Below, in pieces: positions 8,967-39,555 of a stretch of 64,000 bases of DNA. The position numbers and the translations under genes are program-made. The stretch comes from a virus: IMG/VR virus record IMGVR_UViG_3300045988_125278. One strand, 5' to 3'. The notes beneath the pieces are model-generated. The model was not told the origin of the DNA. It was given only the letters and a program-made list of their open reading frames with translations, and searched no databases. The first letter of the stretch is position 1; every line of letters starts with the position of its first letter.

Positions 8967-8984
8967 AATTTTTCTCCTTAATTT

Positions 8985-9688
8985 TAAATTAAATCATTTA
9001 ATGAAATATTATCTTTATTTAAATATGAAATTCTAATTAAAGGAATTCCATGTTCTTTACAATAATTATTTTTTAATTCATCACATTTTTGCTAATACAT
9101 AATTTTTTCTTTAGTATTCCATCCTCCAATATAGTTTGTTGAATGTGTTTCTCCATCATATTCGATTAATTTTTTTACCATATTATCATCATCTAATATA
9201 GCAAAATCAAATCTTAAATAACCATTTTTAGGAGATAATAAATCAGAAAAAACGTATTCTTTTTTATAACTAATATTATTTTTCTTAAGGATATTTTCTA
9301 TAATATATTCCCCTTGTGATTGTTTCAGGCAACCACAAGATATAGTAGTTTTTTGTTTTAAACTATTTGAAGATACTTCTGTAATTTTTCCACATTCACA
9401 TTGGCATTCCCAAATAATGCCTCTTTCTTTAGTCCTTTTTCCGCTATCTTTTAAAACTGTTAATTTACCAAATTTCTAGCCCACTAAATTATTTGAAATT
9501 TTTTCTTTGCGTAAACACCCACAAGATTGAGTTAAACCAGAGACTAAGTTTGCTCTTTGTATACTTTTTATTGTACCACAAGAACATTGACAAATCCAAT
9601 ATTGTTGTTTGGATTTTCTTTCTGTATCTAATTTCAATACCGTTAATCTATTAAAAATTTGTCCTGTTAAATCTTTCATTAAATTCAT
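8985..9688 (-). CDS. tandem Zn-ribbon DNA-binding protein with C-terminal nuclease-like domain (one TAG at 9476; possible free-standing endonuclease)
   Basis: Two repeats of FG+LTVL...WxCxCxCG...SCGC (same N-terminal module as the HNH gene at 56579-57145); C-terminal EYDGETH motif. Confidence 0.4.
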
Positions 9689-9742
9689 CTCCTCTATTAT
9701 TTTTAAATGAATAGGAGAGCATTTTAAGAAAAATTGTCCTTG

Positions 9743-10219: not shown

Positions 10220-11252
10220 GCTTGTATGAATATAGTCATGGCACGTTATTCTTATATTTCTATAAGCGCTGACTATCTCTTACCCTCTAAGTAAATAGAG
10301 AGGAAACCATTTCGGCATTTAACTCACTTCGTTTCCTAAAATGAGACTACGTATCAATAGTAGCCCTACTTCCCCGCCCGGAAGGCCTGGGGAATAGTCG
10401 ATACAGGTTATTTAGACGTTTTTCCAAGTTCTTTTATTAATTATATCAGCAATTGTACCTTTAGATACACCATATTTTTCTGCTAATTTGTCATAAGATA
10501 AATTTGTTTTTTCTCTATCTTCTCTAATTTGTTTAACTATATTAGCAGTTAACTTAGTATGGCGCCCTTTTTGAAATACTTCTGGCATAATTAATCCATA
10601 TCTTTTTCCAGTCCAAATATTTAAAAATGAATTATAATGTAATCTATTTACATATTTCTTTTTATATATTTCAGTAGGACTTTCTTTATTTAGATATGCT
10701 TTTCTTAATTCAATAACTTCTTCCTCTGTTAATTTAGCCTAACCCCAAATTTCTTTTTTTCTATATTCTAATGTTTTTGGCTTTTTACAATTCTTTCCGC
10801 CATCTTCAACATTATATCCATTGGGGACTTTTGAATTAAATTTATTTATATAATATATTTCAAGATTATTTAAAATCTCTACATCATCAATATCCTAAAC
10901 TAAGATTTCATAAGAGAAATTTTCATAACCATATTTTCTAAAAGCCTAATGTAACAATGAATTATACTCAATACTTTTAGGATTTTTATAATTACTTTTA
11001 TGACATCTAAATCTCTATTCAGGATTTATTGTTTGACCTATATATTTTTTATTATTTATTTTATTAGTATAACAATAAATAATACCCATTTAATCACTTC
11101 CTTCATTTTTATATGAAAGAAGTCAGAAGTTATTTGACTATAATCGTCCAAATTTTCCCACGGGATTCCCATGCGTTTTCCGTTTAGGGTTCCCCGTTAG
11201 CCTATTCATTTAAATAGACCCCTAGCGATAACTAGGAAAAGTTTTTCATTAT
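10220..11252 (-). mobile_element. group I intron (family copy A, boundaries +/-30 nt) in the DnaB-like helicase gene
   Basis: Splits a contiguous DnaB homologue; conserved core blocks shared with copies B and C (AAAAACUUUUCC..., GGCUAACGGGGAA, AAUCCCGUGGGAAA, CCUGUAUCGACUAUUCCCC...GGGG hairpin, AGAUAGUCA S-like element); contains a GIY-YIG ORF. Confidence 0.6.
10422..11089 (-). mobile_element. intron-encoded GIY-YIG homing endonuclease (4 in-frame TAGs)
   Basis: MGIIYCYTNKINNKKYIGQT...INPE(TAG)RFRCH...YGYENFSYEIL; NUMOD-like C-terminus. Confidence 0.8.
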
Positions 11253-12310
11253 CCCGGCACCCTTTTATTAGGGTCGAATATATATTTTACATCGTGATCT
11301 CGGATGCCTTTTTTGATTTCATTCTCGACATCCTGCAATGAAAAATCAGGTAATTCACGGATATACAATGGACTATCTTTAAGAATTTTCGCGGCTTCTA
11401 TTACTCGTTCTTTTTCATTTCCTTGATATTCATTATAAATAATATGTTCTTCATTTACGTTAGAAAGAAAAGCAAGCATCATTGTTTGAATTTCATTTTT
11501 ATCTTGCTCTGTAGTTATATATAATACTGGTTCTTGGATTCCGTTTTTAATCCAACTTCCAAAAGTATCATCATATATTTTATTACAAGCAATATAACAC
11601 GAATCCGCAATCATAGAACGAGTTTTACCTACACCGGTGGCCGCGGAGCGCAAATAAAACTTTTTAAGTCTCGCACCACGAGTAACTGTATTAATTAATG
11701 GCCCATATAGAGGACTTCCTGCTATTGGATGTTGCTCTAAATCATCAAGCAATTCAAAAATTCCATCACCTGCTTGAACCGCAACTCCCTCAACATCATT
11801 TACATATTCATATTTAATTTGTTCTATGCGGTCATCAATTAATTGTGCGATATGCTCTAATGAAGAATTATCAAGATTATCTTCTTGTAATTGTTTTTTT
11901 TCAGTATCTAAAATATTATCAGGATCATAAATAAAAGAAACATCAATGCCATATCTGTCATAAGCACGAAGTAGAGACATTTTTTTTAAACGACCATAAT
12001 AATAATCAAATGACAAAGGTTTCGCATTTTCAGAAACTTTTAATAACCATTCTTCACCTTTATTAACTTTAAATGTGGCTTCATATTTAGGTCGAGAAGA
12101 AAGAAAATCACTAATATTTTCTAAAGTAATTTTCTAAGCTCCTAATTCATGAATTTTATATATTGCTCCAAAAACAATTCTATGAAATTCATCAGCAAAA
12201 TCTTCATCAGTTATTGTATATCTATCAGTAAAATCCAAAAGCTAAGGAGTATTATATACACACCCTATAATTTGTGTAATCGCTGTTGGGTCTACATATT
12301 TACTCGGCAT
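11249..12310 (-). CDS. DnaB-like replicative helicase, 5' exon (2 in-frame TAGs near the N-terminus)
   Basis: Walker A RSAATGVGKTRSM; N-terminus MPSKYVDP... reached by reading through TAGs; reading frame ends in intron sequence at 11249. Confidence 0.7.
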
Positions 12311-12320
12311 TTAAGTCCTC

Positions 12321-12890
12321 CTATTCATCTAAAAATGTAAAAACTGATCTTTTTCGAGGTTCTTTTTTAGGAATAGGAATTTTTATTTCCTTTAATTTAG
12401 GAACGTAATCAATAACATTTTTATCTTTATTGGATTGTTGAATCATCCAAAGATTATAATAATAATTGTAAGCGTCTTTATAAATAAAAGGTATAATACC
12501 AATTCCACCATTAGCTTTATTTTTATTATTTCCTTTAACCTCATAAAAATAAACTAAGGCTTTTAACATTCCAGAATATGTATATTGATATTCTCTGATA
12601 TAATCATTCATTTGCTTGCGGACGCGAGCATTAATATATGATTCTCCCAATAAATTTTTTACATATTCTTCAAATTTTTCTTTATCTAAATCTTCTTTTG
12701 TTTTTACTTTTTCGGGCGGATTATGAACTTGTAAAGGAGTGTCTTCATTTTCAGCCTATTTAGCACATTCAGGGTGCGCATATCTTCGAGATTTTATTTG
12801 AACATAAGGAAACTTATCTCTATCAAAAGTCTGCTGACAATAAATACATTTAACTTTATGTATATAAATTACTCCTTTCCATTACTTTAT
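12321..12890 (-). CDS. hypothetical Zn-finger protein (one TAG)
   Basis: CIYCQQTFD...YAHPEC; joined to ORF 12321-12650 through TAG. Confidence 0.4.
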
Positions 12891-12896
12891 ATAAAT

Positions 12897-12925
12897 ATTA
12901 TACAATATTTTTAAATAAAAGTCAA
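12897..12925 (-). promoter_or_regulatory. promoter TTGACT-N17-TATAAT
   Basis: consensus hexamers, 17-nt spacer. Confidence 0.5.
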
Positions 12926-13964: not shown

Positions 13965-14062
13965 TATGTTATTTCTCCTTATTTGTTTTAATTATTATCT
14001 CTTTAAGTATTTCTTCTAAATTCAGTATATTACAAAAATCATCATATAAATTAACTTTAGCG

Positions 14063-14091
14063 CGATGACCTCTTATTGTGAGGTCATCGCT
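14063..14091 (-). terminator. hairpin terminator
   Basis: gcgatgacctc-ttattgt-gaggtcatcgc. Confidence 0.55.
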
Positions 14092-14111
14092 ATTTAATGG
14101 CTAATTCATGA

Positions 14112-15059
14112 TTAGAATTTAAAGCCTTCCGTAGCAGTTGATGCAACAGTAGTAGCAGTAGTGGCATTCTGCTTAGAAGCTTTATATTCATCTTGACGCT
14201 GCTTCAAAGTAGCAAGATAAGTCTCACGTGCGGCCATAGCTTCAGTAAGCTCTTTTGCAGTGATAGAACTTTCATCATCCCAAACATAAGGCTCCTTTGC
14301 GCCACCGGTAATGACAAAATCCTTACGAGTGCTCTGAACTTCACGAACATTATCGTCACCGAACGCAGACTCTTCACGAATCTCGCGCTTAATTACTTCA
14401 GATACCTGACGACCCCAAAGCTTTGTGAATACAGGCTCAGAAGGAGAAGCTCCAAGACCCTCATAATAAGCCATAGCTCCAGGATTAGTGGCTGTAAACT
14501 CAACAGGAAGTAAAGACTTGCGGAAATCAAAAATTGCTCCCTTAACAATTACCTTTTCAGGGATATTATGCTCTTCATCAGCATCAACATGAGTCACATT
14601 GGTGATAATCATATCACACTTAAAAGTATTGCGCTGCTTTTCATCATCAATAAGAGTGGTAGTAGTATGAACAAATCCGCCCTCATTGCGCTTAGTGCTT
14701 ACAAGCTCTTCCTTGCCGTTACGATCAGAATAAAATTCATTAAGACCAATTGCGGAATCTACACGAAGCTTAGCAGCTTTATCTTCTCCATCAGCCATAT
14801 AATTACCGATTGTACCATCAATAATATTCTGAAGAATACTATATGTAGCATTAGGAGTGCCCTTAGTAGTAGTTTGAGTTACATAAGTAAAATGAACCTG
14901 GACGATATTAGTAAGAGCATTATCAGTAGCAATACTAATAGTACCAGAAATAAAAGGAGTGCCGGGGTTCTTAGAATTTGGTCCGGTTACCTTATTTTCC
15001 AAAGCATGTTCGTACAAGATACCTTCAATATGAGTAGTATTTTCCATTACTTTCTTCAT
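14112..15059 (-). CDS. hypothetical protein, possibly ssDNA-binding; higher GC, TAG-free
   Basis: ORF with acidic/aromatic C-terminal tail; hairpin terminator at 14063-14091. Confidence 0.35.
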   Translation of the reverse strand: MKKVMENTTHIEGILYEHALENKVTGPNSKNPGTPFISGTISIATDNALTNIVQVHFTYVTQTTTKGTPNATYSILQNIIDGTIGNYMADGEDKAAKLRVDSAIGLNEFYSDRNGKEELVSTKRNEGGFVHTTTTLIDDEKQRNTFKCDMIITNVTHVDADEEHNIPEKVIVKGAIFDFRKSLLPVEFTATNPGAMAYYEGLGASPSEPVFTKLWGRQVSEVIKREIREESAFGDDNVREVQSTRKDFVITGGAKEPYVWDDESSITAKELTEAMAARETYLATLKQRQDEYKASKQNATTATTVASTATEGFKF

Positions 15060-15073
15060 AAATAAATTTCTCC

Positions 15074-15451
15074 TTAATTAAATAAATTCAATAAATTAAT
15101 ATTTTTTCCTTTTTCTGTTAAAGTATAAATAATTGGATCTTGACTAACTTTTTCTACGAAACCATCAGATACTAATTTGCGCATGGAACCCGCAACTCCA
15201 CGGCTAGACACACCGAGATATTCGGCAATTTCTCTTGATTTAACAAGAGGAATATCTTTATTATTATCTTGCATCCATTTAATAATGGCTTTTCCGCCCT
15301 CAGTAAATAGAGGCTTTTCAGTTTCTTCTTTAGCTTTTAACGCTTCCCAATAGATACTAGCATCTTCACTCATTACTACTGGATAGCGGTTTTCATTAGT
15401 GGCAACAATTAATTCTTCAACATAATCAATAAATGCTTGTTTCTTACTCAT
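15074..15451 (-). CDS. winged-helix/MarR-like DNA-binding protein
   Basis: SREIAEYLGVSSRGVAGSMRKLVSDGFV HTH; promoter at 15490-15518. Confidence 0.45.
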   Translation of the reverse strand: MSKKQAFIDYVEELIVATNENRYPVVMSEDASIYWEALKAKEETEKPLFTEGGKAIIKWMQDNNKDIPLVKSREIAEYLGVSSRGVAGSMRKLVSDGFVEKVSQDPIIYTLTEKGKNINLLNLFN

Positions 15452-15489
15452 TTTAAAAAGTTTATAACCTTTCTTTATCTTATATAAAT

Positions 15490-15518
15490 ATTATATAATA
15501 TTTATTTAGAAAAATCAA
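15490..15518 (-). promoter_or_regulatory. promoter TTGATT-N17-TATAAT
   Basis: consensus hexamers, 17-nt spacer. Confidence 0.55.
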
Positions 15519-15537
15519 GTTATGATTAATTTACCAA

Positions 15538-16190
15538 TAGTTCTTCCGCATAAGGAAGAGTTTCAATCCATTTACAGAACTCTCTCCATTCGGGAAGACG
15601 ATGGTTTTTTCTCTAAATATATATGTTTCTTAAACATCTATAATTAGTAGTTAATCTTGCGGTAAGCAAAAATCCAGCAGGATTAGAGTATAGAATTTCA
15701 AGATATTTTTCTTTTCTAATCTCTTCTAACTGCTCAAGCATTTTAATTTTCTCATTTTTATTTTCAGTTTCACAATGCTTAATTCTATCAATAATACTTA
15801 AAAGTTCATTATAAATATCAACTTTCTCACGCATTATCTCAATGATTCTTGGATCAACATATTCATTATATTGTTCATTTAAATCAAATTTAGTAATGCA
15901 ATGCATTGTGGATTGTGAAGATACAAATTCAAGGAATCTATATCTTTCTGCTTCGACCCAAGCCTTATTGGAAAAAGTTAAATCAAAATTAACTCTAATA
16001 CCAGTTAAAAATTGTGCATGAGCCATATTACCACTTTTTGTGGCAGATACAAGATTCTAACATCTTGTCATATCTTTATCATTAATTGGGTGTTGCTCGG
16101 TATCCGTTCTCATTGGATATCCAGAAGCAACCATACTTTCTGGTAAGTCATAGACTCTTACATTACTGACGATTTTATTATTTTTCATAA
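15538..16190 (-). CDS. hypothetical protein (2 TAGs)
   Basis: ORF 15613-16026 extended both ways through TAG (15613, about 16060). Confidence 0.35.
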
Positions 16191-16466
16191 TCAATCCTCA
16201 TTACTTAAAGTATATCCGCTTAGATTATGCCCAAGAGAACGAACAAAACAATCAAGTTCATCAATGAATACCATACTGCCTTTTGGATAATTCCCATTTA
16301 TATAATCATAATATGAAATAAAATTAATTCCAATAATTCCATATCCTTCTGACTTAATTCTCATAGCATCAGGATTAGAACAAGCAATAATAGCATTTTT
16401 CTCTTTGGCTAACAGTATTAATCTACTCGTTTTTCCTGTTCCACGTTTATCAATTATTCTATACAT
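16191..16466 (-). CDS. small P-loop NTPase-like protein
   Basis: DKRGTGKTSRLILLA ... FIDELD. Confidence 0.35.
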   Translation of the reverse strand: MYRIIDKRGTGKTSRLILLAKEKNAIIACSNPDAMRIKSEGYGIIGINFISYYDYINGNYPKGSMVFIDELDCFVRSLGHNLSGYTLSNED

Positions 16467-16468
16467 TA

Positions 16469-16640
16469 TTTTATACTATACCCAAATTCCTTAGCTTTAA
16501 AATAGTCTTGCCAATAATCTTCTCGCATGTCTAACTCTTCACGAGAACATTCTTCTATTACTTCAAAACTAAAATTTTCTACTCCAATAGCTAACATAGC
16601 AGGATAAAGTTTATTGCGCGTGGCAGGTTCTGCACCAATT
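16469..16640 (-). CDS. 3' exon of membrane-anchored coiled-coil GIY-YIG-domain protein (boundary approximate)
   Basis: ...RWKQHIKRG...NKLYPAMLAIGVENFSFEVIEECSREELDMREDYWQDYF is the second half of a GIY-YIG domain; the annotated Met at 16744 lies inside conserved intron RNA also present in copy A. Confidence 0.45.
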
Positions 16641-17897
16641 CCGCGTTTAATATGTTGTTTCCAACGGTCAGCAATATTGCAAATTATTTTATAATTTTGA
16701 CTATCTTTTACTGTTAAAATTTTAACAGGAAACCATTTCGGCATTTAAAGGACTTCATCTCTTAAAATCCTACTACGTATCAATAGTAGCCCTACTCCCC
16801 TGTCCAGAAGACCGAGGGGATAGTCGATACAGGTTCTTTGATTAACGTGCTGGATAATCATAATTTTTTATAAGATATGACTCTCCTTTATTAATTTTAC
16901 TAACTGTATCACGATGTATATTATATTTAATACCAATATCAGACATTGATTTAGAACTATTTCTTAAATCTGATAAAATATTTTTTACTTCTTCAATAGT
17001 AAAATTCTGATTATTCCTAACATTTTTATTTCTAATAGGATAAATATAATTACCATTTTCTTTAAATAAAGTTCCTTGATTAATTGCTCTAATTACCTTT
17101 AAAGGGACTTTATACTTTTGAACTAAATCTGTTTCAATCTATAAATCCCAACGATACAATAAATCTTCCTTTAAATTTAATAATTCCTATTCATTAAGAA
17201 AATAATCTAAAATATTATCTTTTTTCGCAAAATCATGATTATTTTGTCTTAATGGATATGAAAGATTTGGATTAAAATATGTATTTCCTTGAGATATATT
17301 CAAAATAGTATTTTGACTAACTTGATATAAATTAGCAATATCTTTATAAGATAATTTAGTATTATTTATTAACAAATTTATAATTTCATTTAGTTGCTAT
17401 TCATTGAATTTAGAATTACAATTTTCTATTCCTCGTTTGCCAGAAACATTTCCATTTTTTAATATATTATATCCTATTGTTTTATCTGTAGCATTATAAA
17501 AATTAATCCATTTATCTTCTATCTCATCAAGCTATAAAATATCAGAGACCTATTCTAATATTTCAATTGTAGCTTGGTGTTTTTTTAAAGCCTAATCACA
17601 AATTTGAATATTTTTATGATTATGTTCATTGGCTCTAGACTAAATATTTAAAGCCTAACCAATATAAATTTTACCATTATCATAATTAATTTTATAAATA
17701 CCACAAATTTTTAAATTGTCATTAATGTTAGTAATCATTGTTGCTTCCACCGTCCTTCTATATATTTTTAATTTTTATGGAGGATGGATTAATCAAAGTT
17801 TCCCACGGGATTGATTAAAGTTAATTTTCCCCGTTAGCCGGCCATTTCCAAATTTTGGTAATTGACAGACCCCACTGATTAGTGGAAAAGTTTTTCA
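16641..17897 (-). mobile_element. group I intron (family copy B, boundaries approximate) interrupting a GIY-YIG-domain gene
   Basis: Shares 5' and 3' core blocks with copies A and C; separates the GIYKITNLENQMCYVGQA half from the R..H/ENF..E half of one GIY-YIG domain. Confidence 0.55.
16852..17738 (-). mobile_element. intron-encoded GIY-YIG homing endonuclease (about 8 in-frame TAGs)
   Basis: MITNINDNLKICGIYKINYDNGKIYIG(TAG)A...; HTH/NUMOD-like C-terminal repeats. Confidence 0.75.
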
Positions 17898-18710
17898 CCG
17901 GCCAGTATTGACCGCTTGACCCACATAACACATTTGATTTTCTAAATTAGTAATTTTATAAATTCCTGTATGGATTCCTGAGCCAATTACTCGACCAATC
18001 AAATCTGTAGTTGGTTTTTCATAATAGCTTTTCCAAATTACTTTATTTAAAATATCTTTATCACGAAGTCTTGGTTCAATAGAACGAAGAAGACTAATTT
18101 CATCAATATCTATTTGAGGCAACTATAATTTATAGAAATCAGCTTGGTTTTTAATTTCTTCGGCACGCTTTGCAGCATCAACTGCGGCCGCGACTTCTCT
18201 ACTATGTAATTGAATTTCTTCATCTAATTTATTTAATTCTTCTTTTTTAGAATCAATTAAATTAGATAATTCTAAAGAACAATCAACAAGAGTTGATTGA
18301 TATTCATTTTCATATTCTTCTTTAGCTTTTGTATATTTAAATTCTTGTTTATTTAAATCATATTCAAGACGAACGCGAGCATTTTCCATTGATTGTTGAT
18401 AAAAAATGTCCGCTGATTGTTTTGCTTGATTCTATAAAGAATTTAAGCTATTTTCAACTTCGTCTCTCTTGGACTAAAGAATATTTAGATTATTTTCTAC
18501 TTCTTCTTTTCTAGAAGTAATACTTTTTACTGCCGTTGATAATATTGTATACTAATCATCTAAATCTGAATTTTTAGATTCAAGCTCTTTATTTTGTTTT
18601 ACTATTTCTTCATTGAGCTTTTGGATGTTATTTAGTCGTGGACGTAAAATAAAATATATTAAAAATCCACCAACAATAAACGCCAGTATAGCAATTATTA
18701 AAGTAAGCAT
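17895..18710 (-). CDS. 5' exon of membrane-anchored coiled-coil GIY-YIG-domain protein (3 TAGs)
   Basis: N-terminal TM MLTLIIAILAFIVGGFLIYFIL, coiled coil, then ...TGIYKITNLENQMCYVGQAVNTGR followed by TGA inside intron sequence. Confidence 0.45.
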
Positions 18711-18769
18711 AAATACTTAAAAAAGAAGGGGCAGATATTAAATATCTACCCCTTAATAATCTATATTAA

Positions 18770-19039
18770 TTACTCCGCGTCAGGAGCGTCGGGATCAAAG
18801 CTCATGCCAGCGGGAGTGAGAGAGAGGAACTTGACCTGCTTATGAGTGCCATCCTCAAGCTCAACCTCAGCGGGAGTGCGAAGACCGAGACCCTTGCGCT
18901 GAATAGCACTGGTAAAGATACCATCAACAGAACGCTTCTCGAGACCGAGAGCCTCAGCAACATCAGCAGCGGTAACTTCCTGACCGTTAACTTCCTTCAA
19001 ATAATTAAGAACCTTCTTAGAATTTTCCTTCATAGCCAT
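18770..19039 (-). CDS. hypothetical DNA-binding-like small protein; GC-rich, TAG-free
   Basis: ORF with strong promoter TTGACA-N18-TATAAT (19113-19142). Confidence 0.35.
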   Translation of the reverse strand: MAMKENSKKVLNYLKEVNGQEVTAADVAEALGLEKRSVDGIFTSAIQRKGLGLRTPAEVELEDGTHKQVKFLSLTPAGMSFDPDAPDAE

Positions 19040-19130
19040 AATAATAATAATCTCCTTTAAATAATTAAATATTTTTTTTATTTTTTTCTTTTAACCTTTA
19101 GGTTATGTAAATATTATAGTAAAAAATTTT

Positions 19131-19331
19131 TTATTTGTCAAGAATTTTTCCAAGAATTTCTTGAACCATTTCATCAATGGTTGTAATATCATCAAGACTG
19201 TGAACGTGGCTCGAAAGTTCCATAATTTGATTCTGGGCTTTACGAACAGCTTGCGGGTCTTCACTTGTCTGAACGACTAATTCTGCATTAGCAATTTTTT
19301 TTGCGAGATTCTTGAGTTCTTTTGTTTTCAT
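19131..19331 (-). CDS. hypothetical small protein
   Basis: ORF with AAGGAAG RBS and TTGACA-N17-TAAAAT promoter (19365-19393). Confidence 0.35.
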   Translation of the reverse strand: MKTKELKNLAKKIANAELVVQTSEDPQAVRKAQNQIMELSSHVHSLDDITTIDEMVQEILGKILDK

Positions 19332-19364
19332 TTAAAAATTTTCTTCCTTAATTTTTACAAGTTT

Positions 19365-19393
19365 ATTTTACAAAAAATTTTTTTATTTGTCAA
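19365..19393 (-). promoter_or_regulatory. promoter TTGACA-N17-TAAAAT
   Basis: consensus hexamers. Confidence 0.5.
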
Positions 19394-20594
19394 AACATTC
19401 CGCCAAAGTGCAGTCGGTAATGTTCTTATCATCGCGGAATCCTTTAAAAAACCCATGTCTTAAAGTATGGTCTTTGCTATTAATCTCCATACATTGTATA
19501 GAAACTACTCGGTTAAGGTATTTTTTAGGTTCTTTAGCAAAAGCTTCTTTAAGTTCATCGGTTAATCCAGAGGATACCGTTCCAATTTCAATAAGATTTC
19601 CTTTATCATCATAGGCGCCTAACTTCATAGATGTCTTCCATCCATAATAATAGCCTTTGGTAATTGGTTGATAATATTTTTCATTATCTTCTAACAAATT
19701 ACTTCCATTAGCAGGAGGATTCTTTAAATAATTTTTATAAAAATTCCCTTTTACTAATTGGGGTTTCGACCACCCTGCGAAACAATGATCTTCTTCAAAA
19801 CAATTATAAAACATTGGTGTTTTTACTTCCCAATAAGGCCAAGTTGTAATTTCTTTACCATCATAATATTTAGTTGCTCCTTCAAATCCAATACAAATAC
19901 AATCAACATAATCCATCTTTTTAATTTTAATAGAAGACCATGCTGGTCGTTTGTCCGGAACATATGGAGCATCTTTTTTCTTTAAAACCGCACCTTCTTC
20001 ACCCGCGGCAAGGGCGGCCGCAGTAAACTCTTGAATATTATCAAGAACTGCACCTGCAAGTTCCATATAAGAATATTGACTTAAATTAAATTTATCCCAA
20101 ATGGCTTTTAATACCTGATAACGTGTCCAAGCACCCTCATTTTGAATATTAATTCCATTATATTTAATAACATCATGTAAATAATAATGGATTAATCCAC
20201 TGGACTGCTGACGTTTAATCGCTTCAGGTGCTAAACATCCCATAATTTTAGTCACATCTTTAGAAGTTTTACCTGGATAATAAATTTCACCTATTAAAAT
20301 AGTGCCGGAAGGTAAATCTTTGAGTGCTTCATGAATATGAGGGACATTTGCTAACTTTTCAGTTAAAATACCAGTATTTGCACTTACATTACGACTAAAT
20401 AAATAATCATAATGTTCTGTCTTTTCATACTGATACCAATATCCATCTTTTTTCAATTCAGCAAAATATTCACCGCCATTACAAACAACGGGGAAAAGAC
20501 TCTCTTTACCATCGGGCAATTTCCAAATTTTCATCGCTTGGATACAATCTGCTTCTGGAGCATACTTATCAAGCAATTCTTTAGAGAAACTCAT
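19383..20594 (-). CDS. ATP-dependent DNA ligase
   Basis: KxDG motif AELKKDGYW; size and context (between topo II and promoters). Confidence 0.7.
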   Translation of the reverse strand: MSFSKELLDKYAPEADCIQAMKIWKLPDGKESLFPVVCNGGEYFAELKKDGYWYQYEKTEHYDYLFSRNVSANTGILTEKLANVPHIHEALKDLPSGTILIGEIYYPGKTSKDVTKIMGCLAPEAIKRQQSSGLIHYYLHDVIKYNGINIQNEGAWTRYQVLKAIWDKFNLSQYSYMELAGAVLDNIQEFTAAALAAGEEGAVLKKKDAPYVPDKRPAWSSIKIKKMDYVDCICIGFEGATKYYDGKEITTWPYWEVKTPMFYNCFEEDHCFAGWSKPQLVKGNFYKNYLKNPPANGSNLLEDNEKYYQPITKGYYYGWKTSMKLGAYDDKGNLIEIGTVSSGLTDELKEAFAKEPKKYLNRVVSIQCMEINSKDHTLRHGFFKGFRDDKNITDCTLAECFDK

Positions 20595-20623
20595 TGATTT
20601 ATTTCCGTCCTATCTTTAAATAT

Positions 20624-20652
20624 ATTATAGAAAAATTTTTTAAAAAAATCAA
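20624..20652 (-). promoter_or_regulatory. promoter TTGATT-N17-TATAAT for the ligase gene
   Basis: consensus hexamers. Confidence 0.55.
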
Positions 20653-20655
20653 GTA

Positions 20656-20678
20656 AAGGAGGATATAATCCTCCTTTA
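20656..20678 (-). terminator. hairpin terminator after topo A gene
   Basis: aaaggagg-atataat-cctccttt. Confidence 0.55.
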
Positions 20679-20685
20679 TAAGATT

Positions 20686-23061
20686 TTATACCTTAGTTGC
20701 TGACTTAATCTTGCTAGACTTAATAATCTGATTACCAACAGAAATACGCCCAAGAGCAGGAATGTCTTTTGCGGAAACGCAAATAGATGCTTTATCCCCT
20801 GTAATAAGTAGATTATCTTCATCAGCAATTAACGCAGTTGCGGTCAATGGACCGGTAGACCCACTCGTTTTATATATATTAAGTCCTTTACCACCACGTT
20901 TTTGCAAAGTCAATTCATTTAAAGATAATTTCTTTCCTAAGCCATTTTCGCTAAATACTGCTATAGAATCAGTATCATGTCGAATTGGCATAGTAGAAAT
21001 TACTTCATCACCTTCGTTAAGATTAATACCTTTAACTCCAGCGGTAGCGCGAGAGGTCGCGGTAATGTCTGTAGAATTAAATTTAATTCCCATGCCATTT
21101 TTAGTTGTTAATATAATAGGCTCATCTTTAATTAAACATACAGATGCTAAACTATCGCCTTCGCGCAAACTAATTGCGACAATACCAGTCTTTTTCTTCG
21201 TATTAATATACTCTTCCAAAGCAGTCTTCTTTACAAGTCCATTCTTAGTAGTAAACAATACATATTTGGCATCAGTATCTCTATAAATTGAATACATTGT
21301 CTCAGGATTTTCATCAGGAGCCATATTTACAAGACTCTTAATAGATTGGCCTTGTGAGCTATTCGTTCCTACTGGAATATTGTCAACTAAAAGTCGATAC
21401 ATTACACCTTTATTTGAGAAAATCATTAGAGAATCAATGGTATTAGTTCTTAAAACACAAGAGGTAATATCTTCTTGAGATTTAATACCTTTACCATTTT
21501 TCTTTTGCGTGCGATAAGAAGCAGTCGGGATACGCTTAATTGTTCCACCCTCAGTCATTACAACAACACACTTTTCAGGTTCAACATACTCAATTTCTTT
21601 ATCTTCTTTTTCTACTGGAGCTTGAATGATTTTAGTAATACGCGCATCACCATAAGTATTTTTAATAGTAATGAAAATCTTTTCAAGTTCATCAGTGGGG
21701 TCTTTAAGAATTAAAGCTAAACGCTCACTCTCTTTAATTAAATTATCTCTTTCCTCTTGGATTTCAACTTTTTCTAAACGAGCTAATCTACTTAATTTAA
21801 TATCAAGAATTGCTTTAGCTTGATCTTCATCTAATTTATATTGAGTCATTAAAGCTTGACGAGCAACAACCGCGCTCTCGCTCTTTTTAATAAGAGCAAT
21901 TATATTATCAATATCTTCAAGTGCTTTAAGGATACCATTTAAAATATGAATACGAGCTTGTGCTTTATCATATTCATATTTTGTTTTTCTCAATATTACA
22001 TCTTTTTGATGACTAATATAAATTTCAATAAGTTGTTTAAGATTTAAAAGTTTTGGTTTCTTATTAACAAGAGCAACCTGATTAAAACTATATGTTTCTT
22101 CAAGACGAGATAACTTATAAAGTTTAGAAATAATAGGCTGAGCACTAACACCCTTATCAAGTTCAATTACAAAACGCACTCCATCTTTAGTGCTTTCATC
22201 TCTAATAGCAACAATGCCATTTAATTTGCCCTCTTCACAAAGTTTATCAATATCTTCACAAAGAGTATCTTTTGAAACTTTATAAGGAATTGTAGTAAAT
22301 ACAATTAAATCATGTGTTTTTTCATGCTCAATTACATAATCAGCCCTCATACGAGCTCGACCTTTACCAGTTAAATAAGCAGTTTTTAATTCATCTTTAT
22401 TGATAACAGTTCCACCAGTAGGAAAATCAGGGCCTTGGACAAATTGAAGCAAATCTTCAACTTTACACTCGCTATTACGCAAAGTGTAAATAATTGCATC
22501 CATAATTTCAATTAAATTATGTGGAGCAAAAGAACAAGCCATGGCAACTGCAATACCAGTAGTGCCATTTACAAGAAGGTGCGGAATTCGGCCCGGCAAA
22601 TACACTGGTTCATTTTCAACATCAGTATAAGCTAATTGCCAATCGCAAGTATTCTTTTTAATGTCAGCAAGCATTTCTTCGCCAATTTTAGATAATTTAC
22701 ATTCAGTATAACGATAAGCTGCTGGTTCTCCACCATCACGACTACCATTATTGCCATGGAATGAAATTAACGGATAACGCATCGTCCAAGGTTGGCTTAA
22801 AAGACATAAAGCTCCATAGATAGAGCTATCACCATGAGGATGAAAACGACCCATTGCATCACCGACAGGCTGAGCGCACTTAACAAACTTTTTATTATTA
22901 AGATATCCTTTATCAAACATATCATAAAGAATACGTCTTGCAACTGGTTTTAATCCATCTTCCGCAGATGGAATTGCTCTATCAGTTATTACACTTAAAG
23001 AGTAATCCAGGAAGGATTGCTCCACTTCATTAACTATTGGAGTTTTTAGAATCTCTCCCAT
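20686..23061 (-). CDS. type II DNA topoisomerase, GyrA/ParC-like subunit (T4 gp52-like)
   Basis: AQPVGDAMGRFHPHGDSSIYGALCLLSQPW...RYTECKLS catalytic-Tyr region. Confidence 0.85.
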   Translation of the reverse strand: MGEILKTPIVNEVEQSFLDYSLSVITDRAIPSAEDGLKPVARRILYDMFDKGYLNNKKFVKCAQPVGDAMGRFHPHGDSSIYGALCLLSQPWTMRYPLISFHGNNGSRDGGEPAAYRYTECKLSKIGEEMLADIKKNTCDWQLAYTDVENEPVYLPGRIPHLLVNGTTGIAVAMACSFAPHNLIEIMDAIIYTLRNSECKVEDLLQFVQGPDFPTGGTVINKDELKTAYLTGKGRARMRADYVIEHEKTHDLIVFTTIPYKVSKDTLCEDIDKLCEEGKLNGIVAIRDESTKDGVRFVIELDKGVSAQPIISKLYKLSRLEETYSFNQVALVNKKPKLLNLKQLIEIYISHQKDVILRKTKYEYDKAQARIHILNGILKALEDIDNIIALIKKSESAVVARQALMTQYKLDEDQAKAILDIKLSRLARLEKVEIQEERDNLIKESERLALILKDPTDELEKIFITIKNTYGDARITKIIQAPVEKEDKEIEYVEPEKCVVVMTEGGTIKRIPTASYRTQKKNGKGIKSQEDITSCVLRTNTIDSLMIFSNKGVMYRLLVDNIPVGTNSSQGQSIKSLVNMAPDENPETMYSIYRDTDAKYVLFTTKNGLVKKTALEEYINTKKKTGIVAISLREGDSLASVCLIKDEPIILTTKNGMGIKFNSTDITATSRATAGVKGINLNEGDEVISTMPIRHDTDSIAVFSENGLGKKLSLNELTLQKRGGKGLNIYKTSGSTGPLTATALIADEDNLLITGDKASICVSAKDIPALGRISVGNQIIKSSKIKSATKV

Positions 23062-23554: not shown

Positions 23555-23828
23555 ATGATGGCCTCCCTAAAAATTCATTTTCTCCACAATCAATATGAAA
23601 AGAAGTATTAGTAAAAATAGTAATTTTATCAATAAAATAATCGTTAATAATATTTACTTTATTGTCTGGAAATAACTTTTGTAATTGCTCGTGGAGGTCT
23701 CTACAAGTAATTATATCAATATCTTTATTAACATGAGCTAAAATAACGTCATCTTTACGAATAGGAATTATTTCAATAGGCGTTCCTTTATAATTACTTA
23801 CATATCCCTTATCAGTTTTATACATCAA
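23535..23828 (-). CDS. hypothetical protein
   Basis: ORF. Confidence 0.3.
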   Translation of the reverse strand: MMYKTDKGYVSNYKGTPIEIIPIRKDDVILAHVNKDIDIITCRDLHEQLQKLFPDNKVNIINDYFIDKITIFTNTSFHIDCGENEFLGRPSYDCDLY

Positions 23829-24030
23829 TATTGGCCCTTTCTGCGTTTAACTCAATGAAAGATTTACGAGGGCCGACTGATTCCCCCATCAAATCCATAA
23901 ATGTTTTATTTACAAGATTCATATCATCCATTGTAATTTGTTTTAAGGTGCGAGTTTCTGGATTCATAACCAATTCCATCTCATGGGTGTCCATTTCGCC
24001 TACATGTTTCTCCAATATTACTATTGGCAC
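23818..24030 (-). CDS. type II topoisomerase GyrB-like subunit, 3' exon (true 5' boundary inside 23995-24030)
   Basis: KHVGEM...ELVMNPETRTLKQITMDDMNLVNKTFMDLMGESVGPRKSFIELNAERANIDV matches the GyrB C-terminus (KGLGEMNPE...LMGD.VEPRR.FIEENA). Confidence 0.75.
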   Translation of the reverse strand: MPIVILEKHVGEMDTHEMELVMNPETRTLKQITMDDMNLVNKTFMDLMGESVGPRKSFIELNAERANIDV

Positions 24031-24990
24031 TGACTAGTTCTTCGCTCCGGCTAACGTATTAACTGCCATCATCACGCCTACCTTTTTGAAAGTATGTATC
24101 AATAATACTTCCTACTCCCCGACAAAGGGGATAGTCGATACAGGATTAAACTACGATATTTTTCCAATTCTAATAACTCCATATATTTGTAAAAGAACCA
24201 TATGTAAGTTTATTAGAATAATCTTTATAAACTTCTCTTATATTTTCTCCATTTTTACGACGCAATCTTATTTGATAAACATCTTGTTCGGTCATTTTAG
24301 AGCGTCCATTTTTACTTCCCTAATTAGAAGTATTATGTTTATGAAAATTTTTATTTTCAATTGTATATACTTCTGGCATAATATTTTTCCAAGTATCACC
24401 ATTCCAAATTTTATGGAAGCCAGATTCACCAATTAAATTTTTATAATCTTCATAAACTTCATTTTTTCTTTCTTGATTATTATAACGAGTTCTAATATTA
24501 ATAACATCTTGTTTAGTTAATTTATGACTCGGATGACTTTCTTCAGTATTAAATTGCCCTCCAGGAGTCATATTATACTAATCAGGATAAGTATTATAAT
24601 ATTTTATATAATACTATTCTCTATCATTAAGTTCTTCGATAGAACATTCTTCTAATATCTCAAAAGAAAAATTATTTATTCCATATTCTAATATATCTTT
24701 ATATAACTTTTTATTTTTTTCTCTATACCAGTTATATGATTTTTTATGTTCTCTAAAACGCTATTCTATTTGTGTGCTTTGTCCTATATAAGATAAGTTA
24801 TTTATTTTATTGGTTATTTTATAAATACCAATCATTTTAATTACCTCACTAATTATAAGTAAGATAATATCGTAGTTCTTCCCACGAGATTATCTCCACT
24901 AATATTTAACGCTCATTCATTTCAATTTTTCCTGAAATGTCCTAAATATTAGCAAGACTGCCTCGTTAGCCGCCAACTGGAAAATTTTAC
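24000..24990 (-). mobile_element. group I intron (family copy C, boundaries approximate) in the GyrB-like topoisomerase gene
   Basis: Splits the GyrB homologue; conserved blocks CUUUUCC-hairpin, GGCUAACGAGGCA, AAUCUCGUGGGAAG, CCUGUAUCGACUAUCCCC..GGGG hairpin, ACUAGUCA. Confidence 0.55.
24157..24835 (-). mobile_element. intron-encoded GIY-YIG homing endonuclease (about 5 TAGs)
   Basis: MIGIYKITNKINNLSYIGQSTQIE(TAG)RFREH...YGINNFSFEILEEC. Confidence 0.75.
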
Positions 24991-30330: not shown

Positions 30331-30393
30331 TATTATCCTCCTTTCTATAAAATAAAAAAGAAAGAGAAGAAGTAAATCTTCTCTTTCTTATAA

Positions 30394-39363: not shown

Positions 39364-39555
39364 TTACTCCTTTGAGCGAGAAGGAACCGCGATATTAATA
39401 AAAATCTTAATGACAAACATTTGCCAATAAGTAATGCTTGGAAAGCAAAACCAAGGAATAAGAGCGGTATTCCAAATAAATAACATAATAGCTACTTCAA
39501 TAAACATAAGAGCTACACCCGCGATTGCCATAGAAATATCATCATAATCGTCCAT
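39364..39555 (-). CDS. small membrane protein
   Basis: hydrophobic ORF with promoter at about 39581-39620. Confidence 0.3.
   Translation of the reverse strand: MDDYDDISMAIAGVALMFIEVAIMLFIWNTALIPWFCFPSITYWQMFVIKIFINIAVPSRSKE

What the first reader, a model, noticed from the sequence alone, without database searches (positions are those of the whole stretch)
16469..18710. Membrane-anchored coiled-coil protein ending in a GIY-YIG nuclease domain that is itself split by a GIY-YIG-encoding intron
Exon 1 (17895-18710) encodes a TM segment, about 150 aa of coiled coil and the first half of a GIY-YIG domain. The second half lies 1.2 kb downstream after intron copy B. A GIY-YIG nuclease tethered to the membrane by a long coiled coil is an unusual architecture, reminiscent of RNase Y-like topology. 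That makes it a candidate host-takeover or anti-defence nuclease rather than a homing enzyme.
Basis: partly seen in the sequence, partly recalled or inferred. Interest (0 to 1): 0.55.

Follow-up and report, generated by a model that had tools for sequence, protein, structure and literature searches.

The report
Intron-split membrane-tethered phage GIY-YIG nuclease
A gut phage that reads TAG as glutamine carries a conserved gene for a DNA-cutting enzyme anchored to the cell membrane by a long helical stalk. In this phage the gene is interrupted by a mobile self-splicing intron, and the enzyme family is large but has never been described or correctly annotated.

Summary

- **Gene structure.** Exon 1 (18710-17911, minus strand) and exon 2 (16679-16466) join in frame to a 337-aa protein.
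- **Protein.** It has an N-terminal transmembrane helix, a single helix of about 170 residues, a 50-residue helical adaptor, and an I-TevI-type GIY-YIG domain with intact catalytic residues. The protein ends right after that domain.
- **Intron.** The 1,231-nt insert (17910-16680) is a group I intron. Its own GIY-YIG/HTH homing endonuclease ORF sits in the P6 loop.
- **Proof of the junction.** A 97-98% identical phage contig lacks the intron and encodes the uninterrupted 337-aa protein.
- **Not a homing enzyme.** The family has at least 480 clusters at 50% identity. It was found only on phage-sized metagenomic contigs, with no isolate phage or isolate genome. The nuclease domain is always C-terminal, with no DNA-binding module. 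The gene sits in conserved synteny next to the gyrase-like genes in the replication and nucleotide-metabolism module.
- **Annotation gap.** No Pfam, NCBIfam, PHROG or PADLOC family covers the whole architecture. Public annotations are truncated by standard-code gene calling.
- **Function.** This is inferred, not shown. My best guess is a cytoplasm-facing, membrane-restricted DNA endonuclease that clears host or foreign DNA. Processing of replication intermediates is a close rival.

This is a new architecture of a known nuclease fold, of moderate interest.

The parts
17911..18710 (-). Exon 1 of the nuclease gene. It runs from ATG 18710 through codons 1-266 plus two bases of codon 267, with in-frame TAG (Gln) codons at 18554-18552, 18476-18474, 18434-18432 and 18125-18123.
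   Evidence: Code-15 translation. It aligns at 96% DNA identity to bases 1-801 of the intronless gene in L001.
18645..18707 (-). N-terminal transmembrane anchor, residues about 2-22. The predicted topology is N-terminus out and C-terminus in the cytoplasm.
   Evidence: The best 19-residue hydropathy window (residues 4-22) scores Kyte-Doolittle 2.96. Of 123 full-length family representatives, 115 have such a segment, with net charge +2.0 on the C-terminal flank against 0.0 on the N-terminal flank. The orientation is inferred from the positive-inside rule.
18132..18638 (-). Long helical stalk, residues about 25-193, probably a coiled coil. It is variable in sequence and length across the family.
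   Evidence: AlphaFold2 predicts one continuous helix across 2-193 with pLDDT 80-93. This stretch has no Pro or Gly and shows heptad-like hydrophobic periodicity over 43-98 and 141-210. Oligomerisation is inferred, not tested.
17976..18128 (-). Family-specific helical adaptor domain, residues about 195-245, with consensus DFYxIxL..D..DI..LR...PRL.R.EA..K.IW..YYQKP...L.
   Evidence: It is conserved in the 38-sequence alignment, with W226 and L237 invariant. AlphaFold2 places helices at 199-210 and 218-241. A profile of this domain alone found only fragments of the same family.
17911..17966 (-). First part of the GIY-YIG catalytic domain: GIY at residues 249-251 and YVG at 262-264.
   Evidence: Pfam PF01541 and the hhalign match to I-TevI.
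16680..17910 (-). Group I intron 'copy B', 1,231 nt. The 5' splice site follows U17911 and the last intron base is G16680.
   Evidence: It is absent from the 97-98% identical contig L001. The P/Q/R/S core elements are conserved and shared with intron A and at least 100 viral-contig stretches. An ORF-less relative matches RF00028 at 38.8 bits, E=1.2e-8. Covariation supports P5, P6/P6a, P7.1 and two hairpins in the P8/P9 region. The window copy itself gets no Rfam hit.
16842..17738 (-). Intron-encoded homing endonuclease ORF of 298 aa, with an N-terminal GIY-YIG domain, HTH modules and 8 in-frame TAGs. It lies in the loop of P6a.
   Evidence: Pfam GIY-YIG matches residues 12-83, with HTH hits at 112-148. 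The 10-bp helix CUUUGAUUAA/UUAAUCAAAG flanks the ORF and covaries in 10 of 10 pairs across 51 introns.
16466..16679 (-). Exon 2: the last base of codon 267 through codon 337, then stop TAA at 16468-16466. It carries the second part of the GIY-YIG domain (R272, H276, E320).
   Evidence: It aligns at 96% DNA identity to bases 814-1014 of the intronless gene. R272, W273, H276, K278 and E320 are invariant in 38 sequences.
16667..16678 (-). A 12-nt patch starting one base 3' of the insertion site that differs from the intronless allele: AATATTGCTGAC (Asn-Ile-Ala-Asp) against GATCTTTCCGCA (Asp-Leu-Ser-Ala). Flanking DNA is 96% identical.
   Evidence: Intron-bearing alleles in L059 and L029 share the Ile-Ala-Asp version. 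This fits co-conversion at homing or a resistant target site; that reading is an inference.
18726..18754 (-). Intrinsic-terminator-like hairpin (13 pairs followed by a T run), 16 nt upstream of the start codon.
   Evidence: Its function has not been tested.
16191..16466 (-). A 91-aa ORF with Walker A-like (GTGKTS) and Walker B-like (VFIDELD) motifs. Its ATG overlaps the nuclease stop codon (TAATG).
   Evidence: Homologues lie directly downstream of the nuclease gene in L114 and L118, but not in all lineages. There is only a weak Pfam AAA hit, E=0.009.

Best explanation
**Shown: the gene and its intron**
- The gene encodes a conserved, non-mobile phage enzyme.
- Its parts are a single-pass membrane anchor, a helical stalk of about 170 residues, a 50-residue helical adaptor unique to the family, and an I-TevI-type GIY-YIG catalytic domain with an intact active site.
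- The protein ends right after the catalytic domain.
- In this phage the gene is interrupted between the YVG motif and the catalytic Arg by a mobile group I intron.
- That intron carries its own GIY-YIG/HTH homing endonuclease.
- Removing the intron in silico restores the 337-aa reading frame.
- The gene is a core member of the module for replication and nucleotide metabolism. It lies next to the gyrase-like topoisomerase genes.

**Inferred: topology and assembly**
- The anchor is N-out and C-in, so the nuclease faces the cytoplasm on a stalk roughly 25 nm long if fully helical.
- The stalk pairs two or more chains. This would bring single-site nicking domains together.

**Inferred: mechanism I commit to (about 0.3-0.35 for this specific role)**
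- The enzyme cuts DNA that comes near the inner face of the membrane. That DNA is host, or other unprotected, DNA.
- Its activity is kept away from phage DNA by location rather than by sequence specificity.
- The cuts would feed the RecJ-like exonuclease, NrdD and ThyX functions encoded in the same module in relatives.
- Full-length protein requires TAG suppression and, in this phage, intron splicing. It probably also requires read-through of an upstream terminator.
For: **Gene structure and intron**
- In-frame join, and a Pfam match that spans the junction.
- Intronless 337-aa homologues and the syntenic intronless contig L001.
- Group I features: conserved core, covariation, and an RF00028 match of a compact relative.
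- The same site is occupied in distant homologues: L029, L059, L126, and the truncated representatives P0320, P0343, P0361, P0373 and P0375.

**Active I-TevI-type domain**
- PDB profile search finds I-TevI at E=3.6e-15.
- hhalign against I-TevI gives 97.9% probability.
- Foldseek against 1mk0/1ln0 gives target-normalised TM-score 0.80-0.84.
- G249, Y251, Y262, G264, R272, H276 and E320 are invariant in 38 sequences that fall to 23-31% identity.

**Not a homing enzyme, but a core gene**
- At least 480 clusters at 50% identity have E<=1e-30, mostly aligned end to end.
- The protein ends 89-99 residues after the GIY motif in all 123 full-length representatives.
- Synteny gyrB-gyrA-(ligase)-[nuclease]-(ClpP)-Thy1-YorF-AAA_24-DnaB holds in relatives at 25-30% identity. 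A RecJ-like DHH gene and NrdD/NrdG lie in the same module.

**Membrane anchor and topology**
-.

**Phage-only distribution**
- Every full-length hit in the genome collection lies on a MAG contig, up to 176 kb long.
- Among deposited phage genomes, only the metagenome-assembled Phass-1 carries it. Phass-1 shows the same architecture once TAG is read as Gln.

**Expression constraints**
- TAG density is 1.48 per 100 codons, against 0 in the ligase, gyrB, AAA_24, YorF and primase genes.
- A terminator-like hairpin lies 16 nt upstream of the start.
- Borges et al. (bioRxiv 10.1101/2021.08.26.457843) propose that in-frame recoded stops delay translation.
Against: - No experiment or expression data supports any step of the biological role.
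- The substrate (DNA or RNA; host, phage or foreign) is unknown.
- The catalytic domain is not related to T4 EndoII beyond the shared motif (hhalign probability 5.9%). 'EndoII-like' is only a functional analogy.
- Host-degradation nucleases such as T4 EndoII are early genes (my own knowledge). Four in-frame TAGs argue against very early synthesis.
- TAG gating is itself weak evidence, because the DnaB-like gene (2 TAGs) and the 220-aa ORF in the Thy1 position (2 TAGs) also contain TAG.
- The I-TevI Asn90 equivalent is Ser335 in this clade, though it is Asn in most other clades.
- Coiled-coil oligomerisation was not modelled.
- The window copy of the intron is not recognised by Rfam, and P3 could not be assigned.
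- No self-protection mechanism for phage DNA was identified.
Confidence: 0.6

Rival explanations
1. The enzyme is a replication or recombination nuclease. It works at a membrane-attached phage replisome, nicking or resolving replication and recombination intermediates alongside the adjacent type II topoisomerase, ligase and helicase. The membrane anchor would play the role that p16.7 plays for phi29.
For: The gene sits inside the replication module and is repeatedly adjacent to the gyrB/gyrA-like genes in lineages 25-30% identical. It has in-frame TAGs, as the DnaB-like gene does, which suggests similar timing. The TM, coiled-coil and C-terminal DNA-acting domain topology matches phi29 p16.7 (my own knowledge, not tested here).
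Against: The catalytic domain is of the I-TevI type, not the UvrC or Slx1 structure-specific type; Foldseek to UvrC gives only E about 0.1. No known replication system needs a GIY-YIG nuclease. No interaction evidence exists.
Confidence: 0.25
2. The enzyme provides superinfection exclusion or competitor clearance. Tethered at the membrane, it cuts DNA of other phages or plasmids as that DNA enters the cell.
For: The membrane anchor is conserved in 115 of 123 full-length representatives, with the catalytic domain predicted on the cytoplasmic side. There is no sequence-specific DNA-binding module. These phages also carry other conflict genes, here a GmrSD_N-HNH endonuclease and an EcoRI-like methyltransferase.
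Against: The gene is not in an accessory or variable region but in the conserved replication module. Exclusion genes are usually made early, yet this gene needs TAG suppression. Nothing shows how the phage's own entering DNA would escape.
Confidence: 0.15
3. The gene is a free-standing or decaying GIY-YIG homing endonuclease that happens to be fused to a hydrophobic N-terminus.
For: The best sequence and structure matches are homing endonucleases: TIGR01453, PHROG homing-endonuclease families, and I-TevI. The window holds several GIY-YIG homing-type genes.
Against: The nuclease domain is C-terminal with nothing after it. No NUMOD, IENR1, zinc-finger or HTH module is present. Synteny and full-length architecture are conserved across at least 480 clusters. 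The C-terminal 140 residues are nearly invariant among phages 57-95% identical overall. The gene is present in both the window and L001, while the true mobile elements differ between them.
Confidence: 0.05
4. The enzyme is an RNase Y-like, membrane-bound endoribonuclease that acts on host or phage mRNA.
For: It has the same topology as RNase Y: an N-terminal TM helix, a coiled coil and a cytoplasmic catalytic domain (my own knowledge of RNase Y; for this protein).
Against: No KH or HD domain is present. The closest characterised GIY-YIG enzymes matched here (I-TevI, UvrC, PD-T4-3, Hpy188I) are DNA endonucleases. The gene context is DNA metabolism.
Confidence: 0.05

Closest known systems
I-TevI catalytic domain (T4 td intron endonuclease; PDB 1mk0, 1ln0)
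   Same: It shares the GIY-YIG subfamily and fold. The profile search gives E=3.6e-15 over I-TevI residues 2-92, hhalign gives 97.9%, and Foldseek gives target-normalised TM-score 0.80-0.84 at 30% identity. The Tyr, Tyr, Arg, His and Glu catalytic residues are conserved.
   Different: I-TevI has the nuclease at its N-terminus, followed by a linker, zinc finger and HTH that pick the target, and it is mobile. Here the nuclease is at the C-terminus with nothing after it. It is preceded by a TM anchor, a stalk and a novel adaptor, and the gene is a conserved syntenic core gene.
T4 endonuclease II (DenA)
   Same: It is a phage GIY-YIG nuclease without a separate DNA-binding domain. Its gene lies next to nucleotide-metabolism genes: nrdB in T4, and Thy1 and NrdD in relatives here. 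It is the functional model for host-DNA nicking.
   Different: No specific sequence relationship was found (hhalign probability 5.9%). DenA is soluble, small (144 aa) and made early. This protein is membrane-anchored and needs TAG suppression.
RNase Y (Bacillus) and phi29 p16.7, as topology analogues
   Same: Both have an N-terminal single-pass anchor, a coiled coil, and a cytoplasmic domain that acts on nucleic acid.
   Different: The catalytic or binding domains are unrelated: KH plus HD in RNase Y, and a DNA-binding dimer domain in p16.7. No homology was detected. The comparison rests on my own knowledge of those proteins.
Uzume (UzuA) single-gene defence system
   Same: UzuA also has a GIY-YIG domain at its extreme C-terminus, about 180 residues into the protein. 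Of 38 family members, 29 hit the UzuA profile (best E=1.4e-9). The mechanism of Uzume is also unknown.
   Different: The window protein and P0001 match only profile positions 184-275 of 278, which is the nuclease domain. Homing-endonuclease profiles score better. This family was found only on phage-type contigs, not in bacterial defence islands.
Phage group I introns with GIY-YIG homing endonucleases (T4 td/I-TevI; Bacillus nrdF intron, PMC2248736)
   Same: It is a self-splicing-type intron in a conserved catalytic motif of a phage DNA-metabolism gene. The endonuclease ORF sits in a peripheral loop. The intron is present or absent between near-identical genomes.
   Different: The host gene is itself a GIY-YIG nuclease. 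The endonuclease ORF is TAG-recoded (8 TAGs). This intron lineage scores below the Rfam RF00028 gathering threshold even in ORF-less form.

Membership tests
GIY-YIG nuclease superfamily (PF01541), I-TevI-type catalytic domain | GIY and YIG motifs on the first two strands | tested here: met
   The motifs are GIY 249-251 and YVG 262-264. G249, Y251, Y262 and G264 are invariant in 38 sequences.
GIY-YIG nuclease superfamily (PF01541), I-TevI-type catalytic domain | Catalytic Arg, His and metal-binding Glu (I-TevI R27, H31, E75) | tested here: met
   R272, H276 and E320 are invariant and align to the I-TevI residues.
GIY-YIG nuclease superfamily (PF01541), I-TevI-type catalytic domain | Conserved Asn at the end of the domain (I-TevI N90) | tested here: not met
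   The window protein and its clade have Ser335 (GYSIK). Most other clades of the family keep Asn (GYN).
GIY-YIG nuclease superfamily (PF01541), I-TevI-type catalytic domain | Three-stranded sheet flanked by helices (GIY-YIG fold) | tested here: met
   The AlphaFold2 model has pLDDT above 90 over most of the domain. Foldseek to 1ln0/1mk0 gives rmsd 1.9-2.3 Å and target-normalised TM-score 0.80-0.84.
GIY-YIG nuclease superfamily (PF01541), I-TevI-type catalytic domain | Nuclease activity | not testable with these tools
   This needs a biochemical assay of the spliced protein or of its soluble domain.
GIY-YIG homing endonucleases (I-TevI, Seg, intron-associated; TIGR01453) | A C-terminal DNA-binding region (zinc finger, NUMOD, IENR1 or HTH) that selects the target | tested here: not met
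   TIGR01453 matches only profile positions 2-87 of 215. No DNA-binding Pfam domain was found. The protein ends 89-99 residues after the GIY motif in all 123 representatives.
GIY-YIG homing endonucleases (I-TevI, Seg, intron-associated; TIGR01453) | Sporadic presence or absence among close relatives; located in an intron, an intein or between conserved genes | tested here: not met
   The gene is present at the same position in the window and L001, whereas introns A and B and a 760-nt insert differ between them. The position is syntenic in distant lineages.
Group I intron (the insert 17910-16680) | U before the 5' splice site paired to G in the internal guide (P1); terminal G; P10 with the 3' exon | tested here: met
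   By direct reading of the sequence, exon CGGU(17911) can pair with intron GCCG. The intron ends in G16680. Intron CAAUACUG can pair with exon 2 CAAUAUUG in 7 of 8 positions. The same boundaries occur in L029 and L059.
Group I intron (the insert 17910-16680) | Conserved catalytic core (P/Q/R/S elements: P4, P6, P7) supported by covariation | tested here: met
   The elements are P GCUAACGGGGAA, Q AAUCCCGUGGGAAA, R GACUA and S AGAUAGUC. Across 51 ORF-trimmed cores, double changes occur in 4 of 9 pairs of P4/P5, 10 of 10 of P6a, 4 of 9 of P7.1, and 4 of 4 and 3 of 3 of two hairpins in the P8/P9 region. Between 88% and 100% of cells are canonical. P3 was not assigned.
Group I intron (the insert 17910-16680) | Match to Rfam RF00028 at the gathering score | tested here: not met
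   The window copy gets no hit, whether searched whole or in halves. The ORF-less relative L085 scores 38.8 bits, E=1.2e-8, against a gathering score of 50, over the full model 1-253.
Group I intron (the insert 17910-16680) | Precise removal restores the host reading frame | tested here: met
   The join gives a 337-aa protein collinear with intronless homologues.
Group I intron (the insert 17910-16680) | Self-splicing | not testable with these tools
   This needs in vitro transcription and splicing, or cDNA.
RNase Y | KH and HD catalytic domains after the TM and coiled coil | tested here: not met
   No KH or HD hit was found in the window protein or in any of 38 members.
Uzume UzuA | Full-length match to the UzuA profile and a bacterial defence-island context | tested here: not met
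   For the window protein and P0001, only profile positions 184-275 of 278 match. Every full-length locus in the genome collection is a MAG contig of up to 176 kb.
T4 EndoII (DenA) | Specific sequence relationship beyond the GIY-YIG motif | tested here: not met
   hhalign gives probability 5.9% over 27 columns.
DUF4041 / T5orf172 coiled-coil nucleases | Pfam DUF4041 and T5orf172 domains | tested here: not met
   Neither family appears among the Pfam hits of the window protein or of 38 members at E<=0.01.

The most novel reading that the evidence does not exclude
This is an undescribed, widespread core gene family of large gut phages, many of them TAG-recoded. In it, a homing-endonuclease catalytic domain has been domesticated, stripped of its DNA-binding module, and tethered to the inner face of the membrane by a long dimerising stalk. 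Under this reading the nuclease is targeted by location instead of by sequence. It would destroy host or invading DNA at the membrane while sparing the phage's own DNA, and its synthesis would be timed by stop-codon recoding.
Probability: 0.3. Interest if true: 0.65.

Novelty: new variant of a known kind. Interest (0 to 1): 0.45.

Why it matters
- **An unrecognised family.** A family of at least 480 sequence clusters sits in the replication module of abundant uncultivated gut phages. Standard-code gene calling chops it at TAG codons and at the intron. Public records show a 141-aa 'GIY-YIG nuclease family protein' or two 'hypothetical' fragments. Recognising the full architecture corrects those annotations.
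- **A concrete target.** It gives a testable protein for asking how a nuclease with no evident sequence-specific DNA-binding module can be used safely by a phage. Membrane tethering would be a different answer from DNA modification or sequence specificity.
- **A clean homing case.** A GIY-YIG homing intron has invaded the catalytic motif of a GIY-YIG host gene. Near-identical intron-plus and intron-minus genomes are available for homing studies.
- **A test of recoding.** The gene bears on the proposal that in-frame recoded stop codons time the synthesis of potentially harmful proteins.

Tried and rejected
- **Rfam on the window.** The whole window at gathering score, 16400-18200 at E<=10, and each intron half separately gave no group I hit. 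The 900-nt ORF in P6 and the divergence of this lineage explain this. A compact relative gave a sub-threshold but significant match.
- **Rfam on six ORF-less loci.** At gathering score this returned only an unrelated intron in L043.
- **Megablast of 14000-23000 against deposited phages.** No match.
- **tblastn against deposited phages with three family members.** Only Phass-1 shares more than the nuclease domain.
- **Profile of the adaptor domain alone.** I was looking for other architectures. It returned only fragments of the same family.
- **Family libraries.** Pfam, NCBIfam, PHROGs and PADLOC have no family for the whole protein. The DUF3450, DivIC, ZapG, SMC, LmuB, JetC and Rz-spanin hits are coiled-coil or TM noise below cut-offs.
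- **Hypotheses rejected.** DUF4041/T5orf172 and RNase Y: the defining domains are absent. T4 EndoII kinship: rejected by hhalign.
- **AlphaFold database fold search.** The library was not available.
- **Literature searches.** Searches for a membrane-anchored or transmembrane GIY-YIG phage protein found nothing relevant. The Phass-1 paper does not mention the gene.
- **Neighbouring small ORFs.** The 66, 89, 91, 125 and 220 aa ORFs gave only weak wHTH or AAA hits.
- **P3 of the intron.** It could not be assigned from invariant sequence.
Full report
**1. What is in the sequence**

The window is AT-rich (about 30% GC), with genes almost all on the minus strand.

Under the standard code, the flagged region is four separate ORFs of 52, 88, 75 and 92 aa. 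The breaks between the first three are all TAG. Allowing TAG as a sense codon merges many minus-strand ORFs across the window. The window therefore comes from a TAG-recoded (code 15) phage.

Read that way, 18710-17895 is one ORF of 271 codons, with TAGs at codons 53, 79, 93 and 196. Its last four codons and the TGA stop are intron sequence.

**2. The join**

- Joining 17911 to 16679 gives a 337-aa protein.
- Pfam GIY-YIG matches residues 249-329, across the junction at residue 267 (E=1.6e-9). NCBIfam TIGR01453 matches 248-336.
- The protein database holds uninterrupted 337-aa homologues at 95% identity and full coverage, and a graded series down to 57%.
- One of them lies in contig L001, which is collinear with the window at 97-98% DNA identity.
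- L001 aligns to 18710-17910 and 16666-16466 with nothing in between. It also lacks a second insert, in the DnaB-like gene.
- The 1.2 kb is thus a presence/absence polymorphism between near-identical genomes, and its removal restores the frame.
- The 12 bases starting one base 3' of the site differ between the alleles: Asn-Ile-Ala-Asp against Asp-Leu-Ser-Ala. Flanking DNA is 96% identical.
- Two other intron-bearing alleles carry the Ile-Ala-Asp version. I read this as co-conversion or a target-site difference. That is an inference.

**3. The insert is a group I intron**

Rfam does not recognise it in the window, whole or in halves. The following evidence supports the assignment.

- The exon ends in U, which can pair with G of an internal guide (CGGU with GCCG). 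The insert ends in G. The guide's 5' part can pair with the start of exon 2.
- Intron B and the DnaB intron A share a core with the classical P, Q, R and S elements, and they differ by compensatory changes in the hairpins.
- A 23-nt core motif occurs in 103 viral-contig stretches, some without an ORF.
- One compact relative matches RF00028 over the whole model at 38.8 bits, E=1.2e-8, below the gathering score of 50.
- I built 51 non-identical ORF-trimmed cores and folded the alignment.
  - The 10-bp helix that closes the ORF-containing loop (P6a) has double changes in 10 of 10 pairs.
  - P5, P7.1 and two hairpins in the P8/P9 region also covary.
  - Between 88% and 100% of cells are canonical.
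- P3 was not assigned.
- The intron ORF (17738-16842) is a 298-aa GIY-YIG plus HTH protein with eight TAG codons.
- The 3' core also resembles sequences in Enterococcus phage EF1 and in Lak phages.

**4. The same site is used in distant homologues**

- Loci L029, L059 and L126 are split after the same codon.
- At least five representative clusters end at GQAV plus a few intron-encoded residues.

**5. The protein**

- **Anchor.** Residues 2-22 are strongly hydrophobic; the best 19-residue window (4-22) scores Kyte-Doolittle 2.96. Nothing precedes them, and Arg/Lys follow.
- **Model.** AlphaFold2 on the 95%-identical P0001, with a 38-sequence alignment, gave mean pLDDT 86.
  - One helix spans 2-193.
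  - Two helices follow at 199-241.
  - An alpha/beta domain covers 249-332.
- **Stalk.** It has no Pro or Gly and shows heptad-like periodicity.
- **Nuclease domain.** It is of the I-TevI type.
  - PDB profile search: E=3.6e-15.
  - hhalign: 97.9% probability.
  - Foldseek: target-normalised TM-score 0.80-0.84.
  - The Tyr, Tyr, Arg, His and Glu catalytic residues are invariant down to 23-31% identity.
  - The I-TevI Asn90 position is Ser in this clade.
  - T4 EndoII is not specifically related.

**6. The family**

- **Size.** A full scan of 1.84 billion representatives found 480 clusters at E<=1e-30, mostly aligned end to end and 300-390 aa long.
- **Architecture.** Of 123 full-length representatives, 115 have the N-terminal hydrophobic segment, with a positive C-terminal flank. 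All 123 end 89-99 residues after the GIY motif.
- **Adaptor domain.** The 50-residue adaptor is conserved, and a profile of it finds only this family.
- **Distribution.** Every full-length hit in the genome collection lies on a MAG contig, up to 176 kb, binned as Mollicutes, Clostridia, Bacilli and similar taxa.
- **Deposited phages.** Only the metagenome-assembled Phass-1, a 'code 15 clade' phage, carries it. There it is annotated as two fragments but is full length once TAG is read as Gln.
- **Truncated public record.** A member of the 90% cluster is deposited as a 141-aa 'GIY-YIG nuclease family protein'.
- **No covering family.** No Pfam, NCBIfam, PHROG or PADLOC family covers the architecture. 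For the window protein and P0001, UzuA matches only over the nuclease domain.
- **Literature.** I found no paper describing it.

**7. Context**

- In the window and L001 the gene order is: gyrB-like, RNase H, gyrA-like, ligase, two small ORFs, the nuclease, a 91-aa Walker-motif ORF, a 220-aa ORF, a wHTH ORF, YorF, AAA_24, DnaB-like, primase.
- Relatives at 25-30% identity keep the nuclease immediately after, or close to, gyrB/gyrA. They are followed by ClpP, Thy1, YorF, AAA_24 and DnaB, with NrdD/NrdG and a RecJ-like DHH gene in the same module.
- This is the signature of a conserved core function in DNA metabolism, not of a selfish element.

**8. Expression features**

- A terminator-like hairpin of 13 pairs lies 16 nt upstream of the start codon.
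- TAG density is 1.48 per 100 codons. That is comparable to the homing endonuclease genes and to the 433-aa ORF at 29030-30331 (2.08; it looks like a lysin by eye, not searched). It is zero in the ligase, gyrB, AAA_24, YorF and primase genes.
- Borges et al. propose that such codons delay translation, and they noted recoded intron endonucleases in early genes.
- The DnaB-like gene also has two TAGs. I therefore take this only as evidence against immediate-early synthesis.

**9. Interpretation**

*Shown.* This is a real, intron-split gene for a membrane-anchored protein with a long helix and an I-TevI-type GIY-YIG domain. It is conserved, syntenic and confined to phage-type contigs. It is not built like a homing endonuclease.

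*Inferred.* The catalytic domain faces the cytoplasm. The stalk oligomerises. The enzyme cuts DNA near the membrane.

I commit, at about one chance in three, to clearance of host or other unprotected DNA, with the products feeding the neighbouring nucleotide-salvage functions. Restriction to the membrane would replace sequence specificity as the safety device.

The rivals are:
- processing of replication or recombination intermediates at a membrane-bound replisome (0.25);
- exclusion of incoming DNA (0.15);
- a homing enzyme (0.05);
- an RNase (0.05).

**10. Verdict**

- The fold and the intron type are known. The architecture and the family are not described.
- Interest is moderate, at 0.45.

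Noticed in passing
window 10241-11276 (-): This is a second copy of the same intron lineage ('copy A', about 1,036 nt). It splits the DnaB-like helicase gene (exons 12310-11277 and 10240-9743) and has a 225-aa GIY-YIG ORF at 11089-10412. It is absent from the 98% identical contig L001.
   Followed up: partly
window 23818-26711 (-): The gyrB-like gene stops at 24987. It is followed by a 229-aa GIY-YIG ORF (24835-24146) and then a gyrB C-terminal piece (about 23994-23818). This is probably a third intron, present in L001 too, with a different core: the 23-nt motif of introns A and B is not there.
   Followed up: no
window 8984-9742 (-): This is a 760-nt insertion relative to L001. It carries a 234-aa ORF with repeated Cys-rich units and a DUF2726 domain, and is probably a free-standing mobile endonuclease-like gene.
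   Followed up: partly
window 49298-55941 (-): This block has higher GC (0.40 against 0.30). It encodes a major-vault-protein-like protein (MVP_shoulder, Vault_3; 832 aa) and a DUF2828/DUF7788 protein (508 aa). It also encodes a GmrSD_N-HNH endonuclease (388 aa) and an EcoRI-like adenine methyltransferase (375 aa). This is an odd gene set for a phage.
   Followed up: no
window 16191-16466 (-): A 91-aa ORF has Walker A-like and Walker B-like motifs, and its ATG overlaps the nuclease stop codon. Homologues follow the nuclease gene in L114 and L118 but not in Phass-1, L112 or L113. It is possibly a lineage-specific partner.
   Followed up: partly
Public records: MCI7444382.1 / DAU68657.1; Phass-1 OQ749652.1 63005-63985: The family is mis-annotated because of standard-code gene calling. 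One record is a 141-aa 'GIY-YIG nuclease family protein' that starts just after the last TAG. In Phass-1 the gene appears as two 'hypothetical protein' fragments of 46 and 144 aa.
   Followed up: yes
L029, L059, L126; P0320, P0343, P0361, P0373, P0375: Homologues down to about 32% identity are interrupted at exactly the same codon (after GQAV). At least L029, L059 and P0361 carry introns of the same lineage. This site is a recurrent homing target across the family.
   Followed up: partly
window, e.g. 12849-12925, 15442-15518, 20598-20673, 39542-39618, 59332-59408: A repeated element of about 60-75 nt lies upstream of many minus-strand genes. It reads as TTGACA, a spacer, then TATAAT on the coding strand, and is presumably the phage's promoter family.
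   Followed up: no
window 34412-34765: There are five tandem copies of a 57-nt unit (reported as 114-nt register copies). They lie inside or next to a minus-strand ORF.
   Followed up: no
window 55972-61397 (-): Six tRNA genes are present (Cys, Lys, Gly, Ser, Ser, Thr), but no CUA-anticodon suppressor tRNA lies in this window. The suppressor needed for TAG decoding must lie elsewhere in the genome.
   Followed up: no
window 15526-16188 (-): A 220-aa ORF with two TAGs sits in the position that Thy1 (ThyX) occupies in relatives L148 and L149, yet it gets no Thy1 Pfam hit. It is possibly a divergent pyrimidine-modifying enzyme.
   Followed up: no
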